This document shows positions 2,370-60,453 of a DNA stretch of 64,000 nt, one piece after another. The notes beneath the pieces were generated by a model. That model was not told the origin of the DNA. It saw only the letters and a list, made by a program, of their open reading frames with translations, and searched no databases. The stretch lies in IMG/VR virus record IMGVR_UViG_2671180676_000004, positions 1-64,000 of that record; one strand, 5' to 3'. The DNA comes from a virus (lineage: Duplodnaviria > Heunggongvirae > Uroviricota > Caudoviricetes). The position numbers were made by a program, and so were the translations under genes. The stretch's first letter is position 1. Every line of letters starts with the position of its first letter.

Positions 2370-2567
2370 ATGAACTGGTTTTCAAATCACTTTGGAAAAA
2401 CTTGGCTGGCGATTCTGGCTTTCATAGCTCTCATGGCCGCCGGTTGGGTATCGAACATTGTAAAACTCGTTTGCTCTGGTGATCTCCAGTTTCAGGCTGG
2501 TATGACCTTGGCTCGTGTTGTTGGGATTTTTGTTTTTCCAGTCGGTTCGGTACTTGGTTATTTCTGA
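2370..2567 (+). CDS. Small membrane protein (65 aa)
   Basis: Two hydrophobic segments; ATG overlaps end of frame 2122..2373. Confidence 0.4.
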   Translation: MNWFSNHFGKTWLAILAFIALMAAGWVSNIVKLVCSGDLQFQAGMTLARVVGIFVFPVGSVLGYF

Positions 2568-2621
2568 CGGTTGTTAGTGCATATGCATTGACCGTCTTTT
2601 CGTAAGCAATTCATGTAACTA

Positions 2622-2637
2622 GAAAACAACTTGTTTT
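2622..2637 (+). promoter_or_regulatory. Motif A palindrome (gaaaacaacttgtttt)
   Basis: Perfect 7-bp inverted repeat, about 30 nt upstream of ATG 2661. Confidence 0.45.
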
Positions 2638-2660
2638 AACAAATAACAAAAGGAAAGCAC

Positions 2661-3086
2661 ATGTTAGGTTTATTCAAAAAGAAAACTCGTAAAGCTGTTA
2701 TCGAGGTCAAAAAAATGGAGAACCGAGATGCGGTTGAAGCCACCGTGTGGGGCGCGTACATGATCTCCTATGCCGATGGCACATGCGACGCAAAGGAAAT
2801 TTCCATTCTTGAGAAAACAATTGCAGCTCTGCCTGCGTTTTCTCCGTTTGCTGGTGAGATTGCCCAAATGAGCGCCAATATCCGTGCTCAATACGAAGCC
2901 TCACCGCGCCGCGCTAATGCCCAGGCTTTACGTGAGCTGGCTGATGTGGCCGGGACTAATGATGCAGTAGATGTACTGTGTCTGTGCCTTGATATTGCCG
3001 ACCAAGACGGTATTGGCGAACAAGAAGAGCTGGCCCTGAAAAAGATCGCACAGGCGCTTCAGTTGTCACTGGATGCTTATCTCTAA
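2661..3086 (+). CDS. TerB-like domain protein
   Basis: Two repeats of the h-x-ADG … E-E-L pattern (YMISYADGTCDAKEIS / CLDIADQDGIGEQEEL) typical of the TerB fold; SD AAAGGAAAG. Confidence 0.5.
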   Translation: MLGLFKKKTRKAVIEVKKMENRDAVEATVWGAYMISYADGTCDAKEISILEKTIAALPAFSPFAGEIAQMSANIRAQYEASPRRANAQALRELADVAGTNDAVDVLCLCLDIADQDGIGEQEELALKKIAQALQLSLDAYL

Positions 3087-3350
3087 TGCTTGAGAGATTC
3101 CGGCTTGTGACCGTCATTGCTCTTCTGGTGATGGCGGTGTTGGTGGATTTTACGGGAAAGATGATGTCTGTCATTTCTGATGGCGTCCTCATTGGTCTGG
3201 CGATCTACTTCGCTTATCCGCTAGTCCGTAAAGCAACGTGTTAATGACAAGGGCCAAATGGCCCTTGTGTTTCGTTGACCGAAATAGAGAGTTTGCACCT
3301 TTACGTTTAGCTTGCTCCCCTTTTATGCCACATCACAATAAAGCCAATAA

Positions 3351-5545: not shown

Positions 5546-8500
5546 CTATATCTGCCCACCTACTCCTTTGAACTTTTCAATAAACGTGACGATTTTCTGG
5601 AAAACCGTCTGTTTTTTCGTTTTATATTGCGGGTTTAACGGACTAAGTTTTGGTAATGTCTCGTTTAATTCTGTGCCATTTTCGGTGGCGTATTCGCGTT
5701 TTAAAGACGTGCGAATATAGCGTTTCGCCGCCTCTTCATTGAGATTTTCTTCTTTAATCAACGCTTCTGCTTCACGTAGCTGTTCGTGTTGAGCAAAGGT
5801 AAAGAACGCGTCAATGATGCTGGCTTTGTCTGGTAAATCATCCAGGTTCGTTTGCTGAATAAAATCGACCACCAGGCCCTCTTTAGCACGGTTCCCTAGG
5901 CTTGAACGAATTAAGCGTTTGACCTCTTCGATCATTTCGCCCTTGCCTTTATTTTGTCTGTTGTGTTCGAAAATCAGTCCAAGGATATAATCCAGGTTTA
6001 TTTCCTGAGACTTCAGCAAATCGACCTCAAAAACTACGTCATCCCAGTCAGTGGTTGATTTCTCTTTTTTCTCAGCTTCTTTCTCACGGCGCTGCCAGTC
6101 GCGAATATCGTTATAGGCAGAACGATAATCCTGAATCTTGCGATCAGCAGGGAGACGAATTGTTTGCAATTCAGCGAACTTTTCATCATCCACATAATGT
6201 TCTGCTTTGAATTTTTCTACCGCAACAGGATCGCTAAGATCGATTTGTTGCAGGGCTTTTAGCGTGGCAAATTCATCATAGTTTTGCAGGATGTTCTCGG
6301 CACGCAGGTATTCGCCAAACAGTTTAACGAAGTCTTTCTTCTCTTTTTCACTTTCAATACTGGCAGGGTCAGGGAACCGTTGTTCCAGTTCTGAAACTAC
6401 TGCCATAAAGCCGCGTTTAGCTTCACCTGTAGCAGCATCAGTAAAGCCTTCCATATACTCTGCATAACTCTTTTCTAACACTACATTTTTGGTGTTTTTG
6501 TCACCAAACAGCGTTATGGCATCGATGGTTGAGCGTTCCAGATCGCGGAAAGTGACGATATTACCGAAGGTTTTAGTCGCGTCATAAATGCGGTTGGTAC
6601 GGGAAAATGCCTGCATCAGGCCGTGAAAACGCAAGTTTTTATCGACGAATAGCGTGTTTAATGTTGGAGCATCGAAGCCGGTTAAAAACATCCCCACGAC
6701 GATTAACAAGTCAACATCCTGATTTTTAACCCGCTGAGCCAGGTCCCGATAGTAGTTCTGAAAACCCTTGCTATCAGTGCTGAAATTCATTTGAAAATGG
6801 TCGTTATACTCACGAATTGCAGCGTCCAGAAACTCTTTAGCACTGCTGTCCATTGCACTGGTATCAAAAGATTCATCGGATATTTCACCAATGGCATTTT
6901 GTTCTTCATTAGCGGCAAAGGAGAAGATTGTCGCAACACGCAGTGGTTTATAGGTAGCAGATTTATTAGCTGCTTCCTCTTGTAACCGTTTAAACGTCGC
7001 GTAATAGGCTTTCGCGGCATCCACGCTGCTCACTGCCAACATAGCATTAAAACCTTTTGAGCCAGGGAAGGTACGGTGGGTTTTCTGGCGGAAATTATTC
7101 AGAATATATTGCGTGATTTCCTGAATACGCATGGGATGAAGAAACGCCTGCTGATTTTCAGCCGCACTCAGTTTTTTCTCGTCAGTTTCTGTCTCTAAAG
7201 ACTTAAACTGTGGCCGCACATCGTTGTAGTCCACCTTGAATTTGAGCACTTTTTCGTCACGAATCGCATCGGTAATTACATACGAATGCAATTCACGACC
7301 AAATACGCTGGCGGTTGTTTCTGAGCCTAAGGCGTTTTCCGGGAAAATAGGGGTGCCGGTAAAACCAAACTGATAATAACGTTTGAATTTCTTCTTCAGG
7401 TTTTTCTGCGCTTCTCCAAACTGGCTGCGGTGGCATTCATCAAATATAAACACCACTTGCTGATTATATACAGGCAGGTCGCTTTCTGCTTTCATCAGGT
7501 TATTGAGTTTCTGAATAGTAGTGACGATAATTTTGTTATCGTCCTTATCCAGATTTCGTTTAAGGCCTGCGGTATTTTCCGAGCCGTTGACGCTGTCTGG
7601 CGAAAAACGCTGATATTCCTTCATGGTCTGGTAATCGAGGTCTTTCCTGTCGACCACAAAGAAGACTTTATCAATAAAGTCCAGCTCTGTTGCCAGACGC
7701 GCGGCTTTAAAGCTGGTGAGGGTTTTACCAGAACCGGTAGTGTGCCAGATATACCCACCGCTTTCCGGTTTTGACCAGTTCTTCGCTGTAAAGGAACTCT
7801 TAATTTTCCACAGAATGCGCTCGGTGGCGGCAATCTGGTACGGTCGCATCACCAGTAGCGTCTGACTACTGTCAAAAACGCTGTAGTTCACCAGAACATT
7901 CAGCAGAGTATGTTTCTGGAAAAAGGTAGCGGTAAAGTCTTTGAGGTCTTTAATCAGCGTGTTGTCTGATTTCGCCCAATTCATGGTGAAGTCAAAACTG
8001 TTTTTATCGCGCTTTGTGGTGTTGGCAAAATAACGGGTATCAGTGCCGTTGGAAATGACGAACAGCTGCAGATACTTAAACAGGGAATTTTCGCTGTTAA
8101 AACTCTCTTTACTGTAACGATGTATCTGGTTGAAAGCCTCACGAATCGCCACCCCGCGTTTTTTTAGTTCGATTTGCACCAGCGGTAAACCATTAACCAG
8201 GATCGTGACGTCATAACGGTTAGCATGAGAACCCGTCTGTTCAAACTGCTGGATAATCTGCACCTTATTGCGCATGAGATTCTTTTTATCTATCAAATAG
8301 ATGTTCTCAAGTCGCCCGTCGTCAAAAATAAAGTCGCAGATATAGTCGATATGGATTTTACGGGTTTTATCCAGAATACCATCGCTGGGGTTGTCCAGAT
8401 ACTGCTCCGTGAAGCGCCGCCACTCGCTGTCATTAAACATCACACCATTGAGGCTCTGAAGCTGTTCCCGAACATTGGACAGCATTGCCGACTGTGATTT

Positions 8501-8662
8501 TACGGAAATAAATTCATAACCCTGATTCCGCAGGTCCTGAATCAGTTCACGTTCCAGGTCCGATTCGCTCTGGTAGCTGTCGCTTGTTTGCTCAGCTTTG
8601 ATGTACTTATCAAGGACGATAAAGTTATTGGATTCAGCAATGGTGTGTGTTTGATGAGTCAT
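5546..8662 (-). CDS. hsdR: Type I restriction enzyme R subunit
   Basis: 1038 aa; SF2 motifs TGSGKT and DECH ([10 protein letters not shown]); directly downstream of hsdM-hsdS. Confidence 0.9.
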
Positions 8663-8784
8663 AGCGCATCCTTTGTGCCGCCTGGCAAGAGCCGGAAGGG
8701 CGTTAAGAGTGACTTCCGGCGCGTAAAAAAATAGTCTATATACTGACCGGGTGTTAAGGTGGCCCGATCGGTAGCAATGGTCAA

Positions 8785-10023
8785 TTAATTACTGACAGTT
8801 TCAGGTTTCGGGAAACTGAACAGTAAATCACGGTAGTATTCGTATTGTTTCTGGCGCAACTCGATTTCACGCGGGAGACCTTCGGTGATGGAGTTGGTCA
8901 GGGTGTCGAATTTATCGAGCAGAGCAGATATTCGCTCTTGTTTCTGTTTATCAGGCAATGGCACTGGTAATGTTTTTATAATATCTGCATTCAAGTTACT
9001 GACCGACCCGCTATTGATTTTACTTTCCCAATAATTTTTCACCTTTTTTGATGAAAGATAGTGATACAGATAATCAGCATTTAATTTTTCACCAAAATTG
9101 CTGATTGATGCCCATCCATCATGGATAGCTCCGGTTATCCTTAAAATATATGGTCTGCCAAAGCTCATAGAGTTAGAAATGACGAAATCACCGGGGTTCA
9201 AGATTCGCGATTTTTGGGCACCCTCTGCAGTTATTTTTTGTAAGGTTTTGTCAATGTATTTAGAGCCGGGGATAGTATCTCCGATTTTAATCCATGGGAT
9301 ACCATTTCCTTGTTCAGTAAGATAATTAACAATTGGCCTGGGGGATGCCCCACGTTGTATTTTGGCTACTTCTCCCAATGCCTTCCACTCAACCTCACCC
9401 TCTTTAAAACTCAGCAACTGGTCGCGATAGTAGTTGTACTGTTTTTTACGCATGTTAAGCTCAGCGGTAAGCTCAGCGGTAAGTGCAGTAAACTTATCCA
9501 GAATCCGAACAATTTCAGACTGGATGGCAAGGGATTTTCCCGGGGCGCTGGGACAAGGGATGGGTATTTGATAGTTTAAAATTGCATCTTTACTGCCTCG
9601 AGGCATCTTTGCCCCTTTAGCGTGCTGCATACTGTAAGAAAAAAATGAATCCGACGATAATGCATAGTAGAGATATTCTGGACTAATAATTTTTTTACAG
9701 TCTGCTAAAATGCGTATAGCAAGGACATCACCACTGCACCCGCCATTATTCTCCGCCATCCAAACTTTCTTTAAATATGGGCGAATATTACCTAAAAGAA
9801 TATCACCTGGCTCATAGGCAGTTAAACGTGCCGTATTAGGCTGATAGGTGGCGTCAATGCGACCGCCTTTATCAGCAAGGAGATTATCAACGCCAACGAA
9901 TGAAGTGGCATCAAGTTTATCAGCATCAACTTTGGTTGTTGAATACCCGGCGATATCGCCCACTGCTTTCCACTCAACCTCAACCCCATCCAGCAATTTT
10001 TCCAGATAACTCAACTCGCTCAT
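8785..10023 (-). CDS. hsdS: Type I restriction-modification specificity subunit
   Basis: 412 aa with two target-recognition halves, each ending in a conserved coiled spacer (…[16 protein letters not shown] / …[16 protein letters not shown]); overlaps hsdM by 4 nt. Confidence 0.85.
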
Positions 10024-11582
10024 TTCTGCACCTCGCAGCCTTCAATTTCAGCCACAATCGCATCAATATCTTTACGCAACTGGTCGATTTTGCTGACCGT
10101 GGTTTTCAGCTCTGCATTCAACTCAGCGATATCGATAATTTCGCGAGTATCTTTCACTTCAACATAGCTGCTCACCGACAGGTTATAGTCATTAGCAACA
10201 ACAGTCTCAAACGCAACAGATTTCGCCAGATGAGCAACATCTTCCTTGCTGGCAAATACCTGCATAATTTTTTCTATATGGGCATCGGTCAGAATGTTGT
10301 TGTTAGTCTCTTTTTTGAACAGTTCGCTGGCATCAATAAACTGAACTTTGGTATCCGTTTTATGTTTAGACAGCACCAGAATATTGACGGCAATGGTGGT
10401 GCCAAAGAACAGGTTCGGTGCCAGTGAAATCACGGTTTCGACATAGTTATTGTCAACCAGATACTGACGGATTTTCTGCTCCGCGCCGCCACGGTAAAAA
10501 ATGCCCGGGAAGCAGACAATCGCAGCACGACCTTTGGCAGAAAGATAGTTCAGCGCATGTAATACAAACGCAAAGTCAGCTTTGGATTTGGGGGCCAGAA
10601 CGCCAGCCGGGGCAAAACGTTCATCGTTAATCAGCGTCGGGTCATCGCTGCCAATCCATTTCACCGAATACGGCGGGTTAGAAACGATGGCATCAAACGG
10701 TTTTTCATCTCTGAAGTGCGGCTCAGTCAGCGTATTGCCCAGCTTGATATCAAACTTGTCGTAGTTGATGTTGTGCAAAAACATGTTCATACGCGCCAGG
10801 TTATAGGTCGTATGGTTGATCTCCTGACCGAAAAAGCCTTCTTCGATGATGTGGTCATCGAACTGCTTTTTCGCCTGCAACAACAGCGAACCGGAACCTG
10901 CTGCCGGGTCGTAGATTTTGTTAACGTGGGTCTGGCCGTGCATTGCCAATTGTGCAATCAGCTTAGAGACGTGCTGCGGTGTAAAGAACTCGCCGCCTGA
11001 CTTACCAGCATTCGCGGCATAGTTAGAAATCAGGAACTCATAGGCATCGCCGAACAGGTCAATCTGATGTTCGTTGAAGTCACCAAGTTTTAACCCTTCA
11101 ACCCCTTTCAGAACCGCAGCCAGGCGGGCATTTTTATCTTTAACGGTGTTACCCAGGCGGTTACTGGTGGTATCGAAATCAGCAAACAAACCTTTGATGT
11201 CAGCTTCTGAAGGATAACCGTAAGCAGAACTTTCGATAGCAACGAAGATGCTGTTTAAATCTGCGTTCAGTCTGTCATTGGTATTTGCTTTCGCCGCTAC
11301 GTTGCAGAAAAGCTGACTGGGGTAGATGAAGTAGCCTTTAGTTTTGATGGCATCGTCTTTAATGTCATCAGTAATTACGCTGTCATCCAGTTTCGCATAA
11401 CAGATACTGTCATCACCGGCTTCAATATAGCTGGAAAAATTTTCGCTGATAAAACGGTAGAAAAGTGCGCCCAGAACGTATTGCTTAAAATCCCATCCAT
11501 CGACCGAACCCCTGACATCGTTAGCAATTTGCCAGATTTGACGATGAAGCTCTGCACGTTGTTGAATACTTGTCATTTTCAT
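10020..11582 (-). CDS. hsdM: Type I N6-adenine DNA methyltransferase subunit
   Basis: 520 aa; SAM motif [10 protein letters not shown] and catalytic NPPYS. Confidence 0.9.
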
Positions 11583-17623: not shown

Positions 17624-18193
17624 ATGGATGTGATGGAAACCCAGAACCAACAAACAAAACCTCTGAATAACATTTATGCGTGGATTCTAGCGTTCATGCC
17701 TTTCTTCTTTGGAGTATCGCCGGAAGAGTATACCAATTACGCTATTATAATTGGGGGTGTAACTACCATCGGTTTGTTAGTAGCTGACAGAATGGCTCTA
17801 TCGGAGTCTGGCTGTGAACCACCTTCAATTCTATGGGGGGTATTCCTCCTGCCTGTCTATCTCTGGAAGCGCGCGACTATTACAAAAGGCAGCAGAGTGC
17901 CATTTATCATAATCGTTGCGTCGCTGGCTTGGGTTATCTTCATCGGCATCCCACACAAGGACGAGGTTGCTCTTGAAGAAGCAGCCTGCCCTCTCGTGAC
18001 AACTATTCTGAAAGAGAATAACGGTTCGACTGCACCAAAATGTATGAAGGTGACAATAGAGGACAAGGTGACGGATAAGTTCTATAGAGCAACGGCTACA
18101 CTAGACAATGGTAATGACATTAACATTACTCTGGAACTTACCGGCGACAGGAACTTCTACGTCCGTGTTCCAAATGTTTATCTGAACAACTAA
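17624..18193 (+). CDS. Membrane protein with four predicted TM helices and a soluble C-terminal domain
   Basis: Hydrophobic segments IYAWILAFMPFFF, AIIIGGVTTIGLLV, ILWGVFLLPVYLW, FIIIVASLAWVIFIGI; alternative start 17633. Confidence 0.5.
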   Translation: MDVMETQNQQTKPLNNIYAWILAFMPFFFGVSPEEYTNYAIIIGGVTTIGLLVADRMALSESGCEPPSILWGVFLLPVYLWKRATITKGSRVPFIIIVASLAWVIFIGIPHKDEVALEEAACPLVTTILKENNGSTAPKCMKVTIEDKVTDKFYRATATLDNGNDINITLELTGDRNFYVRVPNVYLNN

Positions 18194-53444: not shown

Positions 53445-56400
53445 ATGTGGTACAGGGAAGGTACTATCACATTTACACAGGGTAGCAATACTCTGGTTGG
53501 GGCAGGGACAGCCTGGAACGTAACAGCTAATGGTGTGTTGCCGGGGATGATCGTCATTGGCCCCGACAATAAGCTGTATGAGATCAAGCGCGTAATAAGC
53601 GATACGAATATTGTTCTCTCAGAACCTTATACCGGCGAAACTCAGTCTGAGGTTCCGTGCCGAATCATTACGACCTATGAAGGCGACTTAACACAGTTTA
53701 GCGCGCGCTTTACAGCACTAATGTCGCGTATGTCGGCTGATTCCAAGTCTATGCGCAGTTGGTTGACTGCTCTGGATGAGGTGACAATCGAGCGTGAAGA
53801 CGGTACAGAAGTAACCGTTAAGCCGCTAATGCAGATCGTCAACGAGCACAACGAAAACGTTGAGTGGTATAAAAATAACACTGACGCGATTGATGCTGCT
53901 GGCGACAAAGCTCGTGAGGCGGCGGCCAGTGCTGCCGCAGCAGCAGAAAGCGCCAATACCGCTGGAGAAAAAGCCTCTCAAGCGTCTCAAAGTGCATCCG
54001 CTGCGGCATCCTCACAAAGTGCCGCAAGTGCGAGTGCAACTGCTGCGAAAAAATCTGAAACGAATGCCGCAGCGTCACAACAATCAGCAGCCACTTCTGC
54101 ATCCACCGCGACCACGAAAGCGTCAGAAGCTGCCACCTCAGCCCGGGATGCGGCGGCCTCAAAAGAGGCAGCGAAATCATCAGAAACGAGCGCAGCCTCG
54201 AGCGCCAGTAATGCCGCTTCCTCGGCAACGGCGGCAGGAAATTCCGCGAAGGCGGCAAAAACGTCCGAGACGAACGCCAGGTCTTCTGAAACGGCAGCGG
54301 GACAGAGCGCCTCGGCTGCGGCAGGCTCAAAAACAGCGGCTGCGTCGTCTGCCAGTGCCGCGTCAACAAGTGCCGGGCAGGCCTCAGCCAGTGCCACCGC
54401 CGCCGGAAAATCGGCAGAAAGTGCCGCATCGTCTGCTTCAACAGCCACAACGAAGGCTGGCGAAGCCACTGAACAGGCCAGCGCAGCAGCGAGGTCTGCT
54501 TCCGCAGCGAAGACATCCGAAACGAACGCGAAAGCGTCGGAAACCCGTGCAGAATCCTCAAAAACGGCAGCCGCATCGTCCGCCAGTTCGGCAGCGTCAT
54601 CGGCATCATCGGCGTCTGCTTCAAAAGATGAGGCGACCAGACAAGCGTCCGCAGCGAAGGGCAGCGCCACGACAGCATCCACGAAAGCAACAGAGGCGGC
54701 AGGCAGTGCGACGGCAGCATCTCAGAGCAAAACTGCTGCTGAATCCGCTGCGACCCGTGCGGAAGCTGCTGCTGATCGTGCTGAAGAGATTGCCGGTGCA
54801 GTTGCGATGGAAGATGCAAGCCTTACCACCAAAGGTGTTGTGAAACTTAGCAGTGCTGTCGACAGCACCAGTGAATCTTTAGCCGCGACACCAAAAGCAG
54901 TTAAGACCGCATATGATAATGCTGAAAAACGACTACAGAAGGATCAGAATGGTGCTGATATCCCCGACAAGGGCCGCTTCCTGAATAACATTAATGTTTA
55001 CAGCAAAGGTGAAGTGGATCAGAAAAAGGGGATGCGATACGTTGTGGTCAATGCCCCGGCGGGTGTCCAGGAAGGTAAATATTATCCGTTAGTGATAAAA
55101 AGGAATGACAGCCATCGGGCATCCCGCGTTGTCATTTCAACGCCAAGTCGCACAGCTAATCACAGAATGAATAACTGTGAGTTTAATGGTTTTGTTTGCG
55201 CAGGCGGCTGGACGGACCGGGGTAGCTATGCCTGTGGTATGTTCTGGGCTTATTCATCATCGGAACGCGCTATTCATTCCATTCTGATGAGTAATAAAGG
55301 CGATACCGTAGACAGCGTATTCTATATAGAAGGTGGGGCATTTCCCGTAGAGGTCTTTTTAGAAGAAGGACTTTCTGTTACTGCTCCTGCTTCTGATTAT
55401 GTTGTTGCTGAAACGACTTATAAATTTGGCGCAACTGATCCTTATTCTGAATCAGTTGCGGTAAATTTAATTTTAGATTTTAAACAAGGTAATGGATTTT
55501 ATAGTTCGTATCCTGTTTTGAGTAAGTCAGACATTAGCGGTAATAAGGTTTACGCTAATGATGAAGTTATTGTCCGTAGTCAGAATGCGTTAAGGATGAT
55601 TGCTGGCGATTACGGTGTCATATGGCGAAATGATGGAGCAAATACTTACTTGCTCATGACTGATAAAGGCGACCAGTACGGTGGCTGGAACGGTCTTCGA
55701 CCATTTGCAGTAAATAACGCAACAGGTGAAGTGACGATCAATACACCACTTAATTCTCCAAAAGGGGTTAAGGGGAACTCTGATACAGCTACGAAACTTC
55801 AGACTGCAAGAAAAATATCCGGTGTTCCATTTGATGGCTCTACTGATATCACTTTAACCGCCGCGCATGTTGCCGCTTTCGCAAGAAGAGCAACAGGGTC
55901 ATATGCTGATGCTGATGGCGGCGTGCCGTGGAATGCTGAATCTGGTGCTTATAATGTAACTAGAACGGGCGACAGTTATATTCTTGCCAACTTTTATACT
56001 GGTGTAGGTAGTTGCCGTACGCTTCAAATTAAGGCTCACTATAAAAATGGTGGGTTGTTTTATCGTTCATCTCGCGATGGAAGTGGTTTTGAAAGTGGTT
56101 GGGAGCAGGTTTACACGACTGGATTTAGACCTCAGCCGGCTGATATAAACGCACCAACCGCTGCCGCCGGATGGTTAAATAGTGGTAACGGAACAGCATT
56201 TACGACTGCTCAGTTTATAACGTGGCTAAATAATCAGGGTGCATTTTCAAACAAATATTGGATTGCACGGTGCTCATGGACTTACGCCAACAATAATTAT
56301 ATAGACGACACTGGATGTGGCAGGATCGATCTATCTGGTTCCGTGATTGAGGTGTTTAGTAATAAGTCAACAAGCCACTACACTATTCGTGTTACAACGA

Positions 56401-57734
56401 CAACAACATCGGGCCATGGTGGTGTTAATAATGCGGAGTTTATTTATGTGTACAATGGCAGTGATTACTCGCCAGGCTGGCGTCGTTCTTATAATACTAG
56501 AAACAAACCAACAGCTTCTGATGTAGGAGCATTATCGCTTTCTGGAGGAGCGTTAACTGGCGGATTAACTGCTGCTGGCGAGATTATTTCAAAATCGGCG
56601 AATGGTCTGCGCATTGCCTACGGAAACTACGGATTCTTTATCCGAAACGATGGTTCAAGCACATACTTCATGTTGACCGATTCGGGTAACAGCCTGGGAA
56701 CCTATAATAGTTTAAGGCCGCTTATCATTAACAATGCCAATGGTGCTGTTAGGATCGGTAATGGACTCAATGTTACTGGCGGCATCAATGGTAGTTTGGA
56801 CGGTAATGCTTCAACAGCTACGAAGTTGCAAACAGCGAGAAACATCAATGGTGTTAAGTTTGATGGTTCAGGCGATATCAATATTAATACATTGGTATCT
56901 CGTGGCCGAGTTACGGCGTTAAGCGGCTCTACTCAAGGCACTGCTGGCATTCAAATGTATGAGGCGTACAACAATAGCTACCCGACCATGTATGGCAACG
57001 TATTGCACATGAAAGGTGCGAGTGCTGCTGGTGAGGGAGAGTTGCTTATTGGCTGGAGTGGTACGAGCGGTGCACATGCGCCAGTTTTCATTCGCTCACG
57101 AAGAGATAACACAGGTGCGGCATGGTCAGCGTGGGCGCAGGTATATACCGCTAAGGATTCAATCCCTGGTGTGAATACAACTGGTAATCAGAACACTACT
57201 GGTAATGCCGCAACCGCCACAAAATTGCAGACAGCAAGGAAAATTGCTGGTGTGGCATTTGATGGCTCTGCCGATATAACTTTGACTGCGGCTAACCTTA
57301 ATGCTTACACGAAAACAGAGGTAACAAACCTTCTAAGTTCCTATGTGAAGAGCAGTGCTCTTCCAAGCATGACTGTGCGAACTTCCTCTGTTTCAGGTGG
57401 GGATATGGGCATGAGCTTGTCCGCATTCATTAGCCACCTAAAATCAAATGGGGCGTTTAGCAAAAGTTATTGGATTGGCTTTGGCGATGCTATGGGATTC
57501 AATGCTGGCAGTATCAACAATATAACGGGATTTGGTGCTGTAGAATTAGCAGAATCTATAATCGAAGTTTTTAATCTACCTAACGGTGATTATACAATTC
57601 GTTTAACAACGTCACATAAAGCTGACTACGGTGGAGTTACAAACGCAATCCTCGTTTATCACTACCGTAGTAATAGAAGTCCGTCAGGTCAATGGCTGAA
57701 ATTTGCAGGTACTGTTGGGGCAACAAGTAACTGA
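53445..57734 (+). CDS. Side tail fibre protein
   Basis: 1429 aa; long Ala/Ser-rich segment; fibre motif ATPKAVKTAYD; three ATKLQTAR(K/N)I.GV.FDGS.DI repeats. Confidence 0.8.
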   Translation: MWYREGTITFTQGSNTLVGAGTAWNVTANGVLPGMIVIGPDNKLYEIKRVISDTNIVLSEPYTGETQSEVPCRIITTYEGDLTQFSARFTALMSRMSADSKSMRSWLTALDEVTIEREDGTEVTVKPLMQIVNEHNENVEWYKNNTDAIDAAGDKAREAAASAAAAAESANTAGEKASQASQSASAAASSQSAASASATAAKKSETNAAASQQSAATSASTATTKASEAATSARDAAASKEAAKSSETSAASSASNAASSATAAGNSAKAAKTSETNARSSETAAGQSASAAAGSKTAAASSASAASTSAGQASASATAAGKSAESAASSASTATTKAGEATEQASAAARSASAAKTSETNAKASETRAESSKTAAASSASSAASSASSASASKDEATRQASAAKGSATTASTKATEAAGSATAASQSKTAAESAATRAEAAADRAEEIAGAVAMEDASLTTKGVVKLSSAVDSTSESLAATPKAVKTAYDNAEKRLQKDQNGADIPDKGRFLNNINVYSKGEVDQKKGMRYVVVNAPAGVQEGKYYPLVIKRNDSHRASRVVISTPSRTANHRMNNCEFNGFVCAGGWTDRGSYACGMFWAYSSSERAIHSILMSNKGDTVDSVFYIEGGAFPVEVFLEEGLSVTAPASDYVVAETTYKFGATDPYSESVAVNLILDFKQGNGFYSSYPVLSKSDISGNKVYANDEVIVRSQNALRMIAGDYGVIWRNDGANTYLLMTDKGDQYGGWNGLRPFAVNNATGEVTINTPLNSPKGVKGNSDTATKLQTARKISGVPFDGSTDITLTAAHVAAFARRATGSYADADGGVPWNAESGAYNVTRTGDSYILANFYTGVGSCRTLQIKAHYKNGGLFYRSSRDGSGFESGWEQVYTTGFRPQPADINAPTAAAGWLNSGNGTAFTTAQFITWLNNQGAFSNKYWIARCSWTYANNNYIDDTGCGRIDLSGSVIEVFSNKSTSHYTIRVTTTTTSGHGGVNNAEFIYVYNGSDYSPGWRRSYNTRNKPTASDVGALSLSGGALTGGLTAAGEIISKSANGLRIAYGNYGFFIRNDGSSTYFMLTDSGNSLGTYNSLRPLIINNANGAVRIGNGLNVTGGINGSLDGNASTATKLQTARNINGVKFDGSGDININTLVSRGRVTALSGSTQGTAGIQMYEAYNNSYPTMYGNVLHMKGASAAGEGELLIGWSGTSGAHAPVFIRSRRDNTGAAWSAWAQVYTAKDSIPGVNTTGNQNTTGNAATATKLQTARKIAGVAFDGSADITLTAANLNAYTKTEVTNLLSSYVKSSALPSMTVRTSSVSGGDMGMSLSAFISHLKSNGAFSKSYWIGFGDAMGFNAGSINNITGFGAVELAESIIEVFNLPNGDYTIRLTTSHKADYGGVTNAILVYHYRSNRSPSGQWLKFAGTVGATSN

Positions 57735-57874: not shown

Positions 57875-57936
57875 AATTGAAAGGAGAAGTGTGATATAAA
57901 TCCGCCATCCCGATTTGACTTTTCATGGAGGAAAAC

Positions 57937-58260
57937 ATGTCGAACGAGATGGCGGGCGTTACAACAGAGCAAGTTGAGCGTATAGCCGCGATCGTTGCTC
58001 GGGAGGTTGTTGGCAAATTAGGTAAAGAGCTACGTGAAGAAATTGGCCAGGAGGTCAATGATCAGCTGAAAACCTACTTTGGTGATATGACCCCGGCGCA
58101 ACATAGTATTCAACACTCCAATCTGGACAAACTCCTTAACCGGTTAGATTCCATCTCAAGTGGGTTCTTTGGCGGCATTGTTTCTAAAATAACGTCGTTC
58201 ATTATTACCGCACTGCTTTTGGGGTTAGCCGCGTATGGCGTAAAAAGTGGACTGCAATAA
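57937..58260 (+). CDS. Putative holin-like protein with one C-terminal TM helix
   Basis: ATG 57937 with SD GGAGG; TM FIITALLLGLAAYGV; first gene of the lysis cassette. Confidence 0.35.
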   Translation: MSNEMAGVTTEQVERIAAIVAREVVGKLGKELREEIGQEVNDQLKTYFGDMTPAQHSIQHSNLDKLLNRLDSISSGFFGGIVSKITSFIITALLLGLAAYGVKSGLQ

Positions 58261-58273
58261 CAGGAGATCAAGG

Positions 58274-58966
58274 ATGAAGACTCCGAGAGGCATTCGTAAT
58301 AATAACCCCGGTAATCTTGATAAAGGATCACCGTGGCAAGGTCTGGTTGCGAATCCAGACGAACCGCGCTTTTGCACGTTTAAAGACCCTGTTTGGGGGA
58401 TTCGTGCGCTGGCGGTGACTCTAATTACCTACCACGATAAACGTCGCGCAAAAGACGGCACAAGTATCGATACCATTCGTGAAGTTATTGAACGCTGGGC
58501 ACCGCCGAATGAAAACAATACTGACGCCTACATTAATGAGGTGTCTAAAGCCGTTGGTGTAACCGCAGACATGATCATCGATCTGCATGATTACGACATC
58601 CTTCGACCTTTGGTTGAGGCAATCATTCGCCACGAGAATGGCCGAGGCCCGCTAAAAACGCTGAACACCTGGTATGCGGCAGAAGTTATTGAGGAAGGTC
58701 TGCGTCGAGCTGGCGTTGTTAAGCCGGTGAAAACCGTGAAGGCTGTTCCTGTAACTAAAGAAACCGCAGGCGCAACTGTTACAGCAGGTATTGGTCTGGC
58801 GCAGCTGGCCGATGTTATGCCGCAGGTTTCCGCTGCTATGGATAAAGCACAAGGTCATATCTCTAGCGGGGATACAGTACGCATCATCTTCGGTATTGCC
58901 ACTATTGTTGTGGCAGGATTCATTGCCTGGTCGCAGGTAAGAAAACATCAGAAAGGGATGGTCTAA
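58274..58966 (+). CDS. Putative lysis protein / candidate endolysin (family unassigned)
   Basis: Sits between holin-like and spanin genes; motif GIRNNNPGNL; C-terminal hydrophobic segment IFGIATIVVAGFIAW. Confidence 0.4.
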   Translation: MKTPRGIRNNNPGNLDKGSPWQGLVANPDEPRFCTFKDPVWGIRALAVTLITYHDKRRAKDGTSIDTIREVIERWAPPNENNTDAYINEVSKAVGVTADMIIDLHDYDILRPLVEAIIRHENGRGPLKTLNTWYAAEVIEEGLRRAGVVKPVKTVKAVPVTKETAGATVTAGIGLAQLADVMPQVSAAMDKAQGHISSGDTVRIIFGIATIVVAGFIAWSQVRKHQKGMV

Positions 58967-58967
58967 T

Positions 58968-59219
58968 ATGCTAGGCAGCCTGATGACAAAGCTAAAAGTT
59001 GCTTTGATTACGCTGGCTGCCGTTCTTTTCGTTCTTGTCGGCGCTTACACGATGGGCGGGAATGCGGCGCGACGAGCAATGGAAGAGAAGGCAAAACAGG
59101 AAGACAGAAAACGACTTCAAAGCACAGTGGAAGTGGTGAATGAGACGAGCAATAAAATACGTCAGAAAGATGCTTCTGCCGTTCATCGTGAGTTGTATGA
59201 TAAGTGGGTGCGTCATTAA
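58968..59219 (+). CDS. i-spanin (Rz-like)
   Basis: N-terminal TM VALITLAAVLFVLVGAY then charged helical periplasmic part. Confidence 0.6.
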   Translation: MLGSLMTKLKVALITLAAVLFVLVGAYTMGGNAARRAMEEKAKQEDRKRLQSTVEVVNETSNKIRQKDASAVHRELYDKWVRH

Positions 59220-59355
59220 ACCACAAACCGCCAGCGTATTGTTCTGCGATGGAGCTGGGCCTATCTATATCAGCAATAATGATGTGATGACCGAAGAAAC
59301 CGAACGCCAAATCCTTTTTCACAATACGATGGGAGAGAGAGTTTGCGGTTGGTGA
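59140..59355 (+). CDS. o-spanin (Rz1-like lipoprotein), overlapping Rz in another frame
   Basis: Lipobox MISGC after a basic n-region; starts inside the Rz gene and extends past its stop. Confidence 0.5.
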   Translation: MRRAIKYVRKMLLPFIVSCMISGCVIKPQTASVLFCDGAGPIYISNNDVMTEETERQILFHNTMGERVCGW

Positions 59356-59386
59356 TGCGAAGTTCCCCTCACTTGAGGGGAGTACA

Positions 59387-59908
59387 TTATTCTTCGAACA
59401 ATTTTTCGATAGATTTTGTAGGATAGAACAAAGAACGCTCGTTGTTACCAACCAGCTGGATAAAGCCTAAACTTTTATAAAACGCCTTGGCTTTGTCATT
59501 TAACGCCTCAACGAAAAGTCCATGAATGCCTACAGCAAGAGATGCATTGTACACAACGCGCATTGCATGTGTTACAAGCATTGAGCCAAATCCTTGACCT
59601 TGAAGGGACTTGTCCAAAGCCAGCCTACCCAAAGTAACACTTGGAACATTCCGATAAGGTACCTTCTTTTGCTGGCTTCTTGAAGGTAAGGACTCCTTTT
59701 CAAAGCAGCTGCCTGACAAAGTGTAATACCCTAACACTTTTGGTCTGTCTTCTTTCGTGAAAAGCACATAAGCGCGAAGAATTTTTCCCTCATGCTGCCT
59801 TTTTAAGTGGTTGGTTAAAAAGGCATTTAGTGATTCTTCACCGCAATCAAAACCATTCAAATCATAATCTTTCTCTCCAGAGAAAATTTCTATCTTTATA
59901 TTATCCAC
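59387..59908 (-). CDS. GNAT-family tRNA-acetylating toxin (AtaT/ItaT/TacT-like)
   Basis: 173 aa; strong resemblance to remembered AtaT (…DYDL..FDCGEE.LN.FLT.HL.RQH…ILRAY.L…VLGYYTL.GSCFE…LPS.S.QKK.PY.N.PSVTLGRLA.D.SLQGQG…GIHGLFVEALN.KA..FYKSLGF). Confidence 0.8.
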   Translation of the reverse strand: MDNIKIEIFSGEKDYDLNGFDCGEESLNAFLTNHLKRQHEGKILRAYVLFTKEDRPKVLGYYTLSGSCFEKESLPSRSQQKKVPYRNVPSVTLGRLALDKSLQGQGFGSMLVTHAMRVVYNASLAVGIHGLFVEALNDKAKAFYKSLGFIQLVGNNERSLFYPTKSIEKLFEE

Positions 59909-59915
59909 GAGTAAA

Positions 59916-60185
59916 CTACTCCATGCTTTTCAGACGATCAGCAGCTCGTTTCAGCTTGTCGTTCGGTGCCGGAGGATTGCTTATAGCGTCCATAACCAGA
60001 TTCCAGGATTCTTCATTCAGAACTAGTCTACGGTGTTGCTCTATAACTTTCACGGCACGTTCAGATGCACTGCTAACCATAAACTGAGTAATGCTCTGGT
60101 TAGACATTGCGGCAGCTTCCTCGATGATGCTTTTATCGTCATCGGTTAATCTCAAATCGATGCGCTGCTTTTTTAGTGCTGACAT
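59916..60185 (-). CDS. DUF1778 (RHH) antitoxin, AtaR-like
   Basis: …KKQRIDLRLTDDDK…NQS..QFM..SAS.RA..VIEQHRR..LNEESW…NPP.P..KLKRAA.RL; ATG 60185 with SD AGGAGG; 7 nt upstream of the toxin. Confidence 0.8.
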   Translation of the reverse strand: MSALKKQRIDLRLTDDDKSIIEEAAAMSNQSITQFMVSSASERAVKVIEQHRRLVLNEESWNLVMDAISNPPAPNDKLKRAADRLKSME

Positions 60186-60453
60186 GTATTCCTCCTGATG
60201 GCCGTGATGTAGGAAGGCCATCAATCTCCTCTGTTCAAACTGAGTTTTCGACTCAAAAATTACTTTAAAAGGCTATAGCCCATTACGTGTGCATTATCAA
60301 ATTGTGTACGGCATATCACCGTACTTGTAATATAGAGGTCATTGTTACTTTTTTCAACAGACAAATACAAGCTATGATTGCCAATTGTTAATCACAACCT
60401 ACCATTTAACCTTTACACCGCAGCCGTAGGCATTTAGGCTATATCACATATAA

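What the first reader, a model, noticed from the sequence alone, without database searches (positions are those of the whole stretch)
57937..59355. Lysis cassette with unusual membrane topology
The first gene has only one TM helix, at its C-terminus, unlike typical multi-TM holins. The second carries a GIRNNNPGNL motif and also ends in a hydrophobic segment; I could not place it in a lysozyme, amidase or transglycosylase family by eye. The Rz/Rz1-like pair is clear. The murein-degrading function of this cassette is therefore unassigned.
Basis: partly seen in the sequence, partly recalled or inferred. Interest (0 to 1): 0.45.

Follow-up and report, generated by a model that had tools for sequence, protein, structure and literature searches.

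The report
Phage-plasmid lysis cassette, endolysin now assigned
This is the four-gene host-lysis cassette of an SSU5-like phage-plasmid; its cell-wall enzyme belongs to the already characterised Enc34/M4Lys endolysin family, and only its first gene, a small tail-anchored membrane protein, is still unstudied.

Summary
Window 57937-59355 (+) holds four tightly packed genes. g1 is 107 aa with one C-terminal TM helix. g2 is 230 aa, carries GIRNNNPGNL and has a C-terminal TM. g3 and g4 are an overlapped i-spanin/o-spanin pair.

The interpretation "murein-degrading function unassigned" does not hold. g2 matches the crystallised catalytic domain of the phage Enc34 endolysin (PDB 7Q47, E=7e-54; model TM-score 0.88). 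It keeps the equivalents of the catalytic Glu131, Trp79 and Tyr95. It is 55% identical over its full length, membrane tail included, to the phage Chi endolysin. The homologue M4Lys is a published N-acetylglucosaminidase that lyses E. coli only when its C-terminal TM domain is present.

The window is 98% identical to phage Cyrano, where these genes are annotated holin/endolysin/Rz/Rz1.

The open part is g1. It is unrelated to the Chi/Enc34 "holin", which has an N-terminal TM. It belongs to a small family absent from Pfam (56 clusters; invariant G...HxxxH). Family members sit first in lysis cassettes, next to at least five endolysin types, usually alongside a second multi-TM holin-like gene. This resembles XhlA/SPP1 gp24.1 in architecture but not in sequence.

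Overall this is an ordinary cassette with one uncharacterised, probably holin-type, component.

The parts
57937..58260 (+). g1: 107-aa tail-anchored membrane protein (helical N-terminal domain of about 76 residues plus one C-terminal TM). It is a putative holin or holin component. It belongs to phrog_5093 (unknown function) and has no Pfam family.
   Evidence: describe the gene and its family. define the wider family. Searches give the genomic contexts. It is annotated 'Holin' in phage Cyrano and 'putative holin' in SSU5.
58102..58116 (+). Codons for H56-S-I-Q-H60 of g1, the invariant H-x3-H of the family. G49 is also invariant; R62 and D71 are nearly invariant.
   Evidence: Alignment A3 of 43 family members.
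58165..58242 (+). The g1 C-terminal transmembrane helix (residues ~77-102), followed only by KSGLQ.
58274..58966 (+). g2: 230-aa Enc34/M4Lys-type endolysin.
   Evidence: phrog_873, E=3e-88. PDB 7Q47, E=6.8e-54. 55% identity over the full length to Chi gp38. AF2 model against 7Q47: TM 0.88, rmsd 1.9.
58274..58723 (+). g2 enzymatically active domain (residues 1-150). It includes the GIRNNNPGNL loop, W75, Y86 and the catalytic E121.
   Evidence: pLDDT is 81-96 over residues 11-150. W75, Y86 and E121 are invariant in 30 homologues and align to Enc34 Trp79, Tyr95 and Glu131 (PMC8943055).
58724..58963 (+). g2 conserved linker and membrane tail: the VPVTKET motif, an Ala/Gly-rich marginally hydrophobic helix (~165-187), an SSG turn, a TM helix (~200-222) and a basic C-terminus.
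   Evidence: P159, T161, E163, A167, G174, Q177, P183, A188, S198, A218 and Q221 are invariant.
58968..59219 (+). g3: 83-aa i-spanin (Rz-like) with an N-terminal TM at ~8-28 and a charged helical periplasmic domain.
   Evidence: phrog_1026, E=9e-25.. Weak similarity to Chi gp39 (E=0.011).
59140..59355 (+). g4: 71-aa o-spanin (Rz1-like) lipoprotein. The lipobox ISG|C is at residues 21-24 (nt 59200-59211). The gene overlaps g3 in an overlapped, not embedded, architecture.
   Evidence: phrog_1275, E=2e-24. 51% identity to Chi gp40, E=4e-17. SSU5 is grouped in the Chi o-spanin family in PMC6139136.
59362..59383 (+). G+C-rich hairpin between the end of the cassette and the convergent tacT-like gene. 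It is a probable bidirectional terminator.
   Evidence: This is a consensus match only; the number of such sites in the region does not exceed the shuffled expectation.

Best explanation
This is the late-gene lysis cassette of an SSU5-like phage-plasmid. It works in three steps.

(1) Cell-wall cleavage. g2 is the murein hydrolase. It has an all-helical, lysozyme-alpha-lobe-like glycosidase domain of the Enc34/M4Lys type, most likely an N-acetylglucosaminidase with E121 as the catalytic acid. This domain is tethered to the inner membrane by its own conserved C-terminal membrane tail.

(2) Access to the wall. Access comes from an inner-membrane lesion, not from Sec export. The lesion is made by the endolysin's own tail together with g1. 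g1 is a tail-anchored protein with a cytoplasmic helical domain, an H-x3-H motif and one C-terminal TM. It acts as the holin-type or timing component.

(3) Outer-membrane disruption. The short overlapped i-spanin/o-spanin pair, g3 and g4, then disrupts the outer membrane.

Shown here: the family membership of g2, g3 and g4, the conservation of the catalytic residues, the membrane segments, and the lysis-cassette linkage of the g1 family.

Taken from published work on homologues: muralytic activity, bond specificity, and TMD-dependent, azide-insensitive lysis.

Inferred: that g1 forms or controls the membrane lesion; the N-in/C-out topology of g1; and that the g2 catalytic domain waits on the cytoplasmic side until triggering.
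For: g2:
- phrog_873 'endolysin', E=3e-88.
- PDB 7Q47, E=6.8e-54.
- AF2 model against 7Q47: TMt 0.88, rmsd 1.9 A, 58% identity.
- W75, Y86 and E121 are invariant and align to Enc34 Trp79, Tyr95 and Glu131.
- 55% identity over residues 2-228 to Chi gp38, tail included.

Published work on homologues:
- The Enc34 EAD lyses permeabilised E. coli, Pseudomonas and Hafnia. The full-length protein is toxic (PMC8943055).
- M4Lys removes GlcNAc from muropeptides. It lyses E. coli alone, is not blocked by azide, and loses lysis when the last 13 residues are removed (PMC7143992).

g3 and g4: PHROG spanin families, an N-terminal TM, a lipobox, and homology to Chi gp39 and gp40.

g1:
- It directly precedes a g2 homologue in 80 of 80 IMG/VR loci.
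- An HMM search of 1.84e9 representatives finds 56 clusters, nearly all of about 100-140 aa, and the members aligned have the same architecture.
- Distant members lie right after tail genes. They sit directly upstream of GH24 lysozyme, Peptidase_M15_3, GH108, a phrog_669 endolysin, or a 3-TM phrog_8226 holin, in most cases with a 1- or 4-nt overlap. Spanins follow downstream wherever the contig reaches far enough.
- In L084 the g1-like gene is the only membrane-protein candidate next to a soluble endolysin and an embedded spanin pair.
- No other holin-like gene is found in the 64-kb window. The other small multi-TM ORFs are a TciB-like ORF and ORFs of unknown-function PHROG families.
- g1 is under purifying selection.
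- Cyrano and SSU5 annotate the four genes as holin, endolysin and spanins.
Against: - No member of the g1 family has been tested experimentally. PHROGs lists it as unknown function, and it matches no Pfam, NCBIfam or PHROG holin family.
- g1 lacks the charged C-terminal tail that is typical of holins.
- Most distant g1-like genes have a second, more canonical-looking small multi-TM protein beside them. g1 could therefore be an accessory or an antiholin rather than the hole-former.
- M4Lys needs no partner for lysis when over-expressed. Its (unrelated) upstream protein had no lytic effect and slightly delayed lysis.
- Enc34-type endolysins also occur with non-g1 neighbours (Chi gp37; L100).
- The AF2 model of g1 is of low confidence (pLDDT 50), so no structural support is available.
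- How an N-terminal catalytic domain reaches the periplasm using a C-terminal anchor is unresolved in the literature.
Confidence: 0.8

Rival explanations
1. g1 is half of a two-component holin, like PBSX XhlA or SPP1 gp24.1. Those are tail-anchored proteins that are harmless alone but lethal together with a multi-TM holin. In SSU5-like phages the second half is not a separate gene. It is the conserved C-terminal membrane tail of the endolysin, so the enzyme is delivered by the very lesion it helps to build.
For: - g1 has the same architecture as gp24.1/XhlA: a helical N-terminal domain and one C-terminal TM helix.
- Distant g1-family cassettes reproduce both known gene orders. The SPP1 order is tail-anchored gene, endolysin, small 2-TM protein (L087, L088, L089, L091, L094, L098). 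The PBSX order is tail-anchored gene, 3-TM holin, endolysin (L085, L095, L096).
- The window has no separate small multi-TM gene in the cassette. The g2 tail is strongly conserved well beyond what a simple anchor needs (11 invariant positions).
- The M4Lys TMD alone is bacteriostatic and described as holin-like.
Against: - There is no sequence homology between the g1 family and XhlA (PF10779).
- There is none between the g2 tail and the small 2-TM proteins of the distant loci (hhalign probability 0.1%).
- M4Lys lyses without any partner.
- L084 has a g1-like gene without a second membrane protein.
- g1 and g2 identities to the window copy do not track each other across loci (for example g1 84% with g2 99%, or g1 95% with g2 89%). 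This argues against tight co-evolution.
Confidence: 0.3
2. g1 is a stand-alone, single-TM holin that forms the membrane holes by itself. The endolysin tail is only a membrane tether or release signal, comparable to a SAR anchor placed at the other end of the protein.
For: - g1 occupies the first position, immediately upstream of the endolysin, in every locus examined.
- The family is linked to soluble endolysins without any TM or signal sequence (GH24, M15, GH108). Such enzymes need real holes rather than pinholes.
- L084 has no other holin candidate.
- Database annotators call it a holin.
Against: - Nine of the eleven distinct distant contigs carry another small multi-TM, holin-like gene in the same cassette.
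- g1 has no charged C-terminal domain.
- It has no homology to any described holin family.
- Homologous endolysins lyse cells without a holin.
Confidence: 0.3
3. g1 is an antiholin or lysis-timing inhibitor. It holds the intrinsically lytic, membrane-tethered endolysin (or a partner holin) in check until late in infection.
For: - Enc34-type endolysins are self-sufficient and toxic, so a brake would be useful.
- Co-expression of the non-homologous Chi-type upstream protein ORF_37 slightly delayed M4Lys lysis.
- g1-like genes usually sit beside a separate holin-like gene.
- The cytoplasmic domain with conserved His residues could be a sensor.
Against: - ORF_37 is unrelated to g1.
- The authors attribute the delay to expression level.
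- L084 lacks another holin candidate.
- There is no direct evidence.
Confidence: 0.15
4. g1 has nothing to do with lysis. On this view it is a tail-associated or exclusion membrane protein that merely lies between the tail-fibre gene and the lysis genes.
For: - g1 lies directly after tail or tail-fibre genes in most loci long enough to show the upstream side.
- No function has been demonstrated.
Against: - In most of the distant loci its stop codon overlaps the start of the next lysis gene by 1 or 4 nt.
- It stays with the lysis genes while the upstream tail genes and the endolysin type both change.
Confidence: 0.05

Closest known systems
Hafnia phage Enc34 ORF39 endolysin (PDB 7Q47; CDD PHA02564) and Salmonella phage BSPM4 M4Lys
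   Same: - The same catalytic domain: E=7e-54, 58% identity in the structural alignment, and the same Glu/Trp/Tyr triad.
- The same N-terminal GIRNNNPGN loop.
- The same two-part C-terminal membrane tail with a basic end.
- The same cassette position, between a small membrane protein and an overlapped spanin pair.
   Different: - About 55% identity only.
- The host element is a ~110-kb phage-plasmid, not a ~60-kb Chi-like siphovirus.
- The upstream partner gene is unrelated.
- Activity and TMD dependence have not been tested for this protein.
Lysis cassette of Chi-like phages (Chi gp37-40; Siskin 'class IV holin' proposal)
   Same: - The endolysin, i-spanin and o-spanin are homologous.
- The gene order is the same.
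- Kongari et al. place SSU5 in the Chi o-spanin family.
   Different: - The first gene differs. Chi gp37, Enc34 ORF38 and Siskin carry one N-terminal TM followed by a long hydrophilic C-terminal domain. g1 has the reverse layout, and BLAST finds no similarity (best E=17).
Salmonella phage SSU5 gp026-030 and Escherichia phage Cyrano CYRAN_22-25
   Same: - They are orthologous: 82% nucleotide identity to SSU5 and 98% to Cyrano.
- They are annotated putative holin, endolysin, Rz and Rz1.
   Different: - Those annotations are by position and similarity only. I found no experimental paper on the SSU5-type cassette.
- PGAP labels the same genes 'hypothetical protein' in plasmid records.
PBSX XhlA / SPP1 gp24.1 (Pfam PF10779), partners of the holins XhlB / gp26
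   Same: - A small protein with a helical N-terminal domain and a single C-terminal TM helix.
- It is the first gene of the lysis cassette.
- A separate multi-TM holin lies either next to it or after the endolysin. The same two arrangements are seen for distant g1 relatives.
   Different: - There is no detectable sequence relationship.
- The hosts are Gram-positive.
- XhlA lacks the G...HxxxH...D motif.
- In the window itself no separate second holin gene exists.
Acidovorax phage AP1 LysAP (GH24 endolysin with a C-terminal TMD)
   Same: - It is an endolysin whose lysis function depends on a C-terminal TM segment with flanking basic residues.
- It cooperates with an adjacent holin (PMC8879335).
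   Different: - It has a different catalytic fold (GH24).
- No spanin was found in that cassette.
- It is not homologous to g2.
SAR endolysins with pinholins (P1 Lyz, phage 21 R21/S21)
   Same: - The endolysin is membrane-tethered.
- Release or activation may depend on membrane depolarisation.
- Over-expression can lyse cells without a holin.
   Different: - The SAR domain is N-terminal and Sec-dependent. Here the anchor is C-terminal, there is no N-terminal signal, and lysis by the homologue was not blocked by azide.
PHA02564 domains in virion proteins (PDB 9VVP Gp29 of phage E1004; T7-like 'internal virion protein with endolysin domain')
   Same: - The same muralytic domain: E=6e-22 to 9vvp_L, plus phrog_7182, phrog_2276 and phrog_992 hits.
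   Different: - There the domain is part of large ejection, core or tape-measure proteins used at infection. Here it is a stand-alone late lysis enzyme.

Membership tests
Enc34/M4Lys-type endolysin (CDD PHA02564; phrog_873) | Sequence homology of the N-terminal domain to the characterised members | tested here: met
   phmmer against PDB 7Q47_A gives E=6.8e-54 over residues 3-151. phrog_873, E=3.4e-88. tblastn gives 55% identity to Chi, SPN19 and iEPS5 endolysins over 99% of the length.
Enc34/M4Lys-type endolysin (CDD PHA02564; phrog_873) | All-helical lysozyme-alpha-lobe-like fold | tested here: met
   The AF2 model has pLDDT 81-96 over residues 11-150. The Foldseek top hits are 7q47_B and 7q47_A, with E=7e-19, TMt 0.88 and rmsd 1.9. 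This is a predicted structure, not a solved one.
Enc34/M4Lys-type endolysin (CDD PHA02564; phrog_873) | Catalytic Glu131 with Trp79 and Tyr95 (Enc34 numbering) | tested here: met
   E121, W75 and Y86 align to these residues. They are invariant in 30 diverse homologues. The roles of the residues are taken from PMC8943055.
Enc34/M4Lys-type endolysin (CDD PHA02564; phrog_873) | C-terminal membrane domain (proximal weakly hydrophobic or amphipathic helix, distal TM helix, basic C-terminus) and no N-terminal signal | tested here: met
   KD maximum 2.07 at residues 204-222. The proximal helix 165-187 has KD 1.2. The tail is VRKHQKGMV. The N-terminus is hydrophilic. Helices at 175-194 and 200-226 appear in the model. 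The tail aligns with that of Chi gp38.
Enc34/M4Lys-type endolysin (CDD PHA02564; phrog_873) | Peptidoglycan hydrolysis (N-acetylglucosaminidase) and TMD-dependent lysis | not testable with these tools
   This is known only for the homologues Enc34 ORF39 and M4Lys.
Two-component spanin, overlapped architecture (Chi o-spanin family) | i-spanin: N-terminal TM followed by a charged helical periplasmic domain | tested here: met
   g3 has KD 2.38 at residues 11-29 and the rest is highly charged. phrog_1026, E=9e-25.
Two-component spanin, overlapped architecture (Chi o-spanin family) | o-spanin: lipoprotein signal with a lipobox Cys, a short mature peptide with further Cys residues, and a gene overlapping the i-spanin gene out of frame | tested here: met
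   g4 reads MRRAIKYVRKMLLPFIVSCMISG|C. The mature part is 48 aa including the lipid-modified Cys, with 2 more Cys. It overlaps g3 by 80 nt. phrog_1275, E=2e-24. 51% identity to Chi gp40, E=4e-17.
Canonical holins (classes I-III; any Pfam/PHROG holin family) | Sequence membership in a described holin family | tested here: not met
   g1 has no Pfam hit at E<=1 and no significant NCBIfam match (best E=0.039, 13.6 bits against a 38-bit cutoff). Its only strong PHROG hit is phrog_5093, 'unknown function'. None of 43 family members hits a holin Pfam.
Canonical holins (classes I-III; any Pfam/PHROG holin family) | Small size, at least one TM domain, and a highly charged hydrophilic C-terminal tail | tested here: inconclusive
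   The size (107 aa) and one TM fit. The charged C-terminal tail is absent (KSGLQ only). The charged domain is N-terminal instead.
Canonical holins (classes I-III; any Pfam/PHROG holin family) | Genetic linkage to endolysin genes of different types | tested here: met
   The gene lies directly upstream of an Enc34-type endolysin in 80 of 80 loci. Distant members are linked to GH24, Peptidase_M15_3, GH108 and phrog_669 endolysins.
Canonical holins (classes I-III; any Pfam/PHROG holin family) | Lethal, timed permeabilisation of the inner membrane | not testable with these tools
   This needs expression and membrane-potential assays.
XhlA / SPP1 gp24.1 (PF10779) | Match to PF10779 | tested here: not met
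   SPP1 gp24.1 hits PF10779 at E=4e-14, which serves as a positive control. g1 and 42 relatives do not hit it. The g1-family HMM and hhalign against gp24.1 give a score of about 0 and P=0.08 over 12 columns.
XhlA / SPP1 gp24.1 (PF10779) | Architecture (helical N-terminal domain plus a single C-terminal TM) and position beside a multi-TM holin in a lysis cassette | tested here: inconclusive
   The architecture is met. A neighbouring multi-TM holin-like gene is present in most distant relatives. It is absent in the window and in L084.
SAR endolysin | N-terminal weakly hydrophobic signal-anchor-release domain | tested here: not met
   The g2 N-terminus MKTPRGIRNNNPGNLDKGSPWQG is hydrophilic. The only hydrophobic segments are C-terminal.

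The most novel reading that the evidence does not exclude
g1 may define an unrecognised family of tail-anchored holin components in phages of Gram-negative bacteria. The family has about 56 clusters at 50% identity and is absent from Pfam. Its members have a cytoplasmic helical domain with an invariant G...H-x3-H...D motif just before a single C-terminal TM.

The family would be a functional analogue, not a homologue, of XhlA/gp24.1. It normally pairs with a separate multi-TM holin. In SSU5-like phage-plasmids it would pair instead with the conserved membrane tail of the endolysin itself. The enzyme would then be both cargo and part of the hole-forming machine.

This would also give a concrete answer to the open question of how C-terminally anchored endolysins reach the wall.
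Probability: 0.25. Interest if true: 0.6.

Novelty: new variant of a known kind. Interest (0 to 1): 0.33.

Why it matters
The main worry raised, a lysis cassette with no identifiable wall-degrading enzyme, is resolved. The enzyme belongs to a family with a crystal structure and measured activity.

What remains matters to a narrower audience. SSU5-like phage-plasmids are common in Enterobacteriaceae, with 397 PLSDB plasmids carrying this cassette, and RefSeq still labels these genes "hypothetical".

C-terminally anchored endolysins (M4Lys, Enc34, AP1 LysAP) pose an unsolved export problem. SSU5-like elements combine such an endolysin with a partner of inverted topology compared with Chi-like phages. 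This gives a natural comparison for testing how the membrane tail and the upstream protein cooperate.

The g1 family has strictly conserved histidines and is linked to at least five endolysin types. It is a cheap and well-defined target for holin and lysis-timing genetics.

Tried and rejected
- Pfam and NCBIfam scans of all four proteins gave nothing above the cut-offs. Pfam on 43 g1 relatives gave only scattered chance hits.
- AF2 of g1 with an 18-sequence alignment gave pLDDT 50. The model is unusable for fold search, so none was run on it.
- I tested whether the g2 membrane tail is a fused copy of the small 2-TM proteins that follow endolysins in distant g1-type cassettes. hhalign gave a probability of 0.1% and BLAST found nothing. 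The idea is rejected at the sequence level and survives only as a functional hypothesis.
- I tested whether g1 is homologous to XhlA/gp24.1. It is not.
- I tested whether g1 is homologous to Chi gp37. It is not (best BLAST E=17).
- I looked for a canonical holin elsewhere in the window. The small multi-TM ORFs are 2370-2567 (phrog_6006, unknown function), 3086-3244 (TciB-like) and 17624-18193 (phrog_12486, unknown function). None lies near the lysis genes.
- Attempts to widen the context sample mostly failed. A3 and A5 were too divergent for the search for related loci. Scans with A6 found nothing in genome contigs or metagenome contigs and only one already-known contig in viral contigs. The distant-context sample is therefore small: 11 distinct contigs.
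- tblastn of g1 and of P0160 against cultured phages finds only SSU5-like phage-plasmids.
- The promoter and terminator scan of the region found no more sites than in shuffled sequence. No promoter claim is made.
- The 99-aa tail-anchored protein upstream of an Enc34-type endolysin in L101 aligns in register with the g1 motif, but only at P=0.02. It is recorded as a possible remote relative, not counted as one.
- A Tat or Sec signal on g2 was considered and rejected, because there is no N-terminal hydrophobic region or twin-arginine motif.
Full report
**What is there**

On the + strand, directly after a 1429-aa tail-fibre gene that ends at 57734, lie four close-packed genes.

- g1, 57937-58260 (107 aa). 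A GGAGG sits 5 nt upstream of the ATG. An in-frame ATG at 57925 has no Shine-Dalgarno sequence.
- g2, 58274-58966 (230 aa).
- g3, 58968-59219 (83 aa).
- g4, 59140-59355 (71 aa). It overlaps g3 by 80 nt in another frame.

A G+C-rich hairpin (59362-59383) separates the cassette from a convergent toxin gene.

- g1 has one hydrophobic segment at residues ~77-102, followed by five residues.
- g2 begins MKTPRGIRNNNPGNL. It has one strong hydrophobic segment at ~200-222, followed by VRKHQKGMV, and a weaker Ala/Gly-rich helix at ~165-187.
- g3 has an N-terminal TM.
- g4 has a basic n-region and the lipobox ISG|C.

The genes are real. The g1-g2 order recurs in 80 of 80 related IMG/VR loci, and the g3/g4 pair follows in 78 of them; the other two loci end before it. 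The cassette is in 397 PLSDB plasmids. Against SSU5 the differing codons are overwhelmingly synonymous for g1 (39:5) and g2 (99:14).

**Where the window comes from**

The region is 98% identical to Escherichia phage Cyrano and 82% identical to Salmonella phage SSU5. It is 100% identical to a 111-kb E. coli plasmid.

The neighbours are a P1-S-like tail fibre, a TacT/TacA-type toxin-antitoxin pair and ParA. This is an SSU5-like phage-plasmid.

Cyrano annotates the four genes as Holin, Endolysin, Rz spanin and Rz1 spanin, and SSU5 does likewise. PGAP calls them hypothetical in plasmid records.

**The murein hydrolase is assigned**

Pfam and NCBIfam find nothing for g2, which explains why it cannot be placed by eye. 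Other evidence is clear.

- It matches phrog_873 "endolysin" at E=3e-88.
- It matches the crystallised catalytic domain of the Hafnia phage Enc34 endolysin, PDB 7Q47, at E=6.8e-54.
- An AF2 model built on 30 homologues is confident over residues 11-150. Its best PDB matches are the two 7Q47 chains (TM 0.88, rmsd 1.9 A, 58% identity).
- W75, Y86 and E121 align with Enc34 Trp79, Tyr95 and the catalytic Glu131. They are invariant in the alignment.
- Over its full length, tail included, g2 is 55% identical to the endolysins of Chi, SPN19, iEPS5 and relatives.

For this family the literature shows the following.

- The Enc34 domain has muralytic activity on permeabilised Gram-negative cells. The full-length protein is toxic (PMC8943055).
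- The BSPM4 homologue M4Lys has N-acetylglucosaminidase activity.
- M4Lys lyses E. coli on its own and is not blocked by azide.
- M4Lys loses lysis progressively as the C-terminus is trimmed (PMC7143992).

The same catalytic domain also occurs inside virion ejection, core and tape-measure proteins.

**Spanins**

- g3 hits the PHROG family phrog_1026 (Rz-like spanin) at E=9e-25, and g4 hits phrog_1275 at E=2e-24.
- g4 is 51% identical to Chi gp40. g3 is only weakly similar to Chi gp39.
- This agrees with Kongari et al., who list the SSU5 i-spanin as a singleton and place its o-spanin in the Chi family.
- The architecture is overlapped, not embedded.

**The first gene**

g1 is the part that is not explained by the literature.

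In Chi, Enc34, BSPM4 and Siskin, the gene upstream of the endolysin encodes a protein with an N-terminal TM and a long hydrophilic C-terminal part. g1 has the opposite layout and no similarity to it.

g1 has no Pfam, NCBIfam or holin-PHROG match. Its family, phrog_5093, is labelled "unknown function". AF2 gives only a low-confidence four-helix prediction.

Close homologues are confined to SSU5-like elements. A profile search of 1.84 billion cluster representatives found 56 clusters at E<=1e-3. Nearly all are about 100-140 aa, and the 43 members aligned are built the same way: a charged helical N-terminal part, a conserved core with consensus YFG-x-M-x-P-x-x-H-x-x-Q-H-x-R-x-x-R-L-L-x-x-x-D, and then one C-terminal TM. 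G49, H56 and H60 are invariant.

**Genomic context of the g1 family**

Besides the SSU5-like loci, I could retrieve contigs for ten distant members. They come from 11 distinct contigs once near-identical duplicates are set aside. In the loci long enough to show the upstream side, the gene follows tail-type genes. It sits directly upstream of the next lysis gene, overlapping its start by 1 or 4 nt in most loci.

- L087: GH24 lysozyme, then a 90-aa 2-TM protein, then an i-spanin.
- L088, L089 and L090: Peptidase_M15_3, then a 75-83-aa membrane protein; in L088 an i-spanin follows.
- L091 and L098: an M15-like 136-137-aa enzyme, then an 80-90-aa 2-TM protein, then an i-spanin.
- L094: a GH108 endolysin, then a 106-aa membrane protein, then an i-spanin.
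- L085, L086 and L095: a 107-109-aa 3-TM protein (phrog_8226 "holin" for the L085 copy). In L085 and L095 a phrog_669-type endolysin follows, and in L085 an i-spanin after that.
- L096 and L097: a 114-aa 3-TM protein.
- L084: a soluble M15-like endolysin, then an embedded i-/o-spanin pair, with no second membrane protein.

The family is thus a lysis-cassette gene. It stays in first position while the endolysin type changes at least five times, which is the classical signature of a holin-type function.

It is usually accompanied by a second, more canonical-looking small multi-TM protein. That pattern recalls PBSX XhlA/XhlB and SPP1 gp24.1/gp26. There, a protein with a single C-terminal TM helix and a 2-TM holin are each harmless but lethal together. 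The two genes either precede or flank the endolysin gene (PMC6316719; PMC5589764).

The resemblance is architectural only. SPP1 gp24.1 hits PF10779, whereas g1 and its relatives do not, and profile comparisons are null.

**How the cassette most likely works**

The enzyme step and the outer-membrane step are well supported by homology.

The inner-membrane step is inferred. g2 has no N-terminal signal. Its homologue is azide-insensitive and needs its C-terminal tail. The tail is conserved far beyond what a simple anchor needs, with 11 invariant positions between P159 and Q221.

I therefore favour the following model. The catalytic domain waits at the cytoplasmic face, tethered by the tail. It gains access to the wall when a membrane lesion forms. 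The tail and g1 both contribute to that lesion.

Three roles for g1 cannot be separated with these tools.

- It may be a stand-alone single-TM holin, as L084 and the soluble endolysins of distant cassettes suggest.
- It may be half of a two-component holin whose other half is the endolysin tail. No separate multi-TM gene exists in the window's cassette or anywhere in the 64 kb.
- It may be an antiholin restraining an intrinsically lytic enzyme.

A direct test of the fusion idea at the sequence level was negative. g1 and g2 identities do not track each other across loci. Enc34-type endolysins also occur with other upstream genes. One of those is a 99-aa tail-anchored protein with a P-x-x-H-x3-H motif that aligns in register with g1 at only P=0.02.

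**Verdict**

- The cassette is an SSU5-type version of the Chi/Enc34-type cassette, with a non-orthologous first gene of inverted topology.
- The only new content is the definition and context of the g1 family. It is a modest but testable lead on how C-terminally anchored endolysins are released.

Noticed in passing
L087:3692-3946, L091:3686-3928, L098:44-280, L100:2231-2488: A conserved protein of about 80-85 aa with no strong TM segment (consensus ...DQL.N.LLGG..DETLSSR.YR....W......IN..FFWQ..HC..AY..E...) lies just upstream of g1-like genes in three distant cassettes. In a Pasteurella prophage it lies directly upstream of an Enc34-type endolysin that has no g1-like gene. It has no Pfam hit. 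It may be another lysis-cassette-associated family.
   Followed up: partly
L101:2205-2504: In an Alcaligenaceae genome, the gene overlapping the start of an Enc34-type endolysin encodes a 99-aa tail-anchored protein with a DPESHRRYH motif. It aligns in register with the g1 G-D-M-T-P-x-x-H-x3-H core (hhalign P=0.02). It is a possible remote relative of the g1 family.
   Followed up: partly
L087:4833-5105, L091:4746-5018, L089:832-1059, L098:1116-1358: A family of 75-90-aa proteins (TQTWLT[IV]FVTT[IV]YN...FA[VI]GP.NTMV[ML]A[FY]W[LM]GSETA) has two hydrophobic segments and a charged C-terminus. They sit between the endolysin and the i-spanin. They are holin-like by position and form but have no PHROG or Pfam match.
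   Followed up: partly
window 5546-11582 (- strand): A complete type I restriction-modification system is carried by the phage-plasmid: HsdR 1037 aa, HsdS 411 aa and HsdM 519 aa, all with strong Pfam hits.
   Followed up: partly
window 59387-60224 (- strand): A GNAT acetyltransferase toxin (TacT/KacT-like, 172 aa) and a TacA1-family antitoxin (E=8e-26) lie convergent with the lysis cassette. They share the hairpin at 59362-59383 with it. SSU5 itself has different genes at this position.
   Followed up: partly
window 2370-3244 (+ strand): A cluster of small genes includes a tellurite-resistance/TciA-like protein (phrog_632), a 52-aa 2-TM TciB-like protein (phrog_1470) and a 65-aa 2-TM protein of unknown function (phrog_6006). 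This is a P1 tciABC-like module, not holins.
   Followed up: partly
window 53445-57734 (+ strand): The 1429-aa tail-fibre protein has a very long Ala/Ser/Thr-rich low-complexity repeat region (roughly residues 150-480). Pfam counts two matched stretches of the Gp34_trimer domain. The Cyrano homologue is 1341 aa, so the fibre length varies between close relatives.
   Followed up: no
L005, L019, L020 (IMG/VR loci): In a diverged SSU5-like subgroup (g1 about 60% and g2 about 65% identical), roughly 1.3 kb is inserted between the endolysin and the spanin pair. The content was not examined.
   Followed up: no
window 58968-59219: The i-spanin g3 evolves much faster than its neighbours: 19 synonymous and 19 non-synonymous codon differences against SSU5. 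Across the IMG/VR loci it combines with different o-spanin variants, which suggests recombination within the cassette.
   Followed up: no
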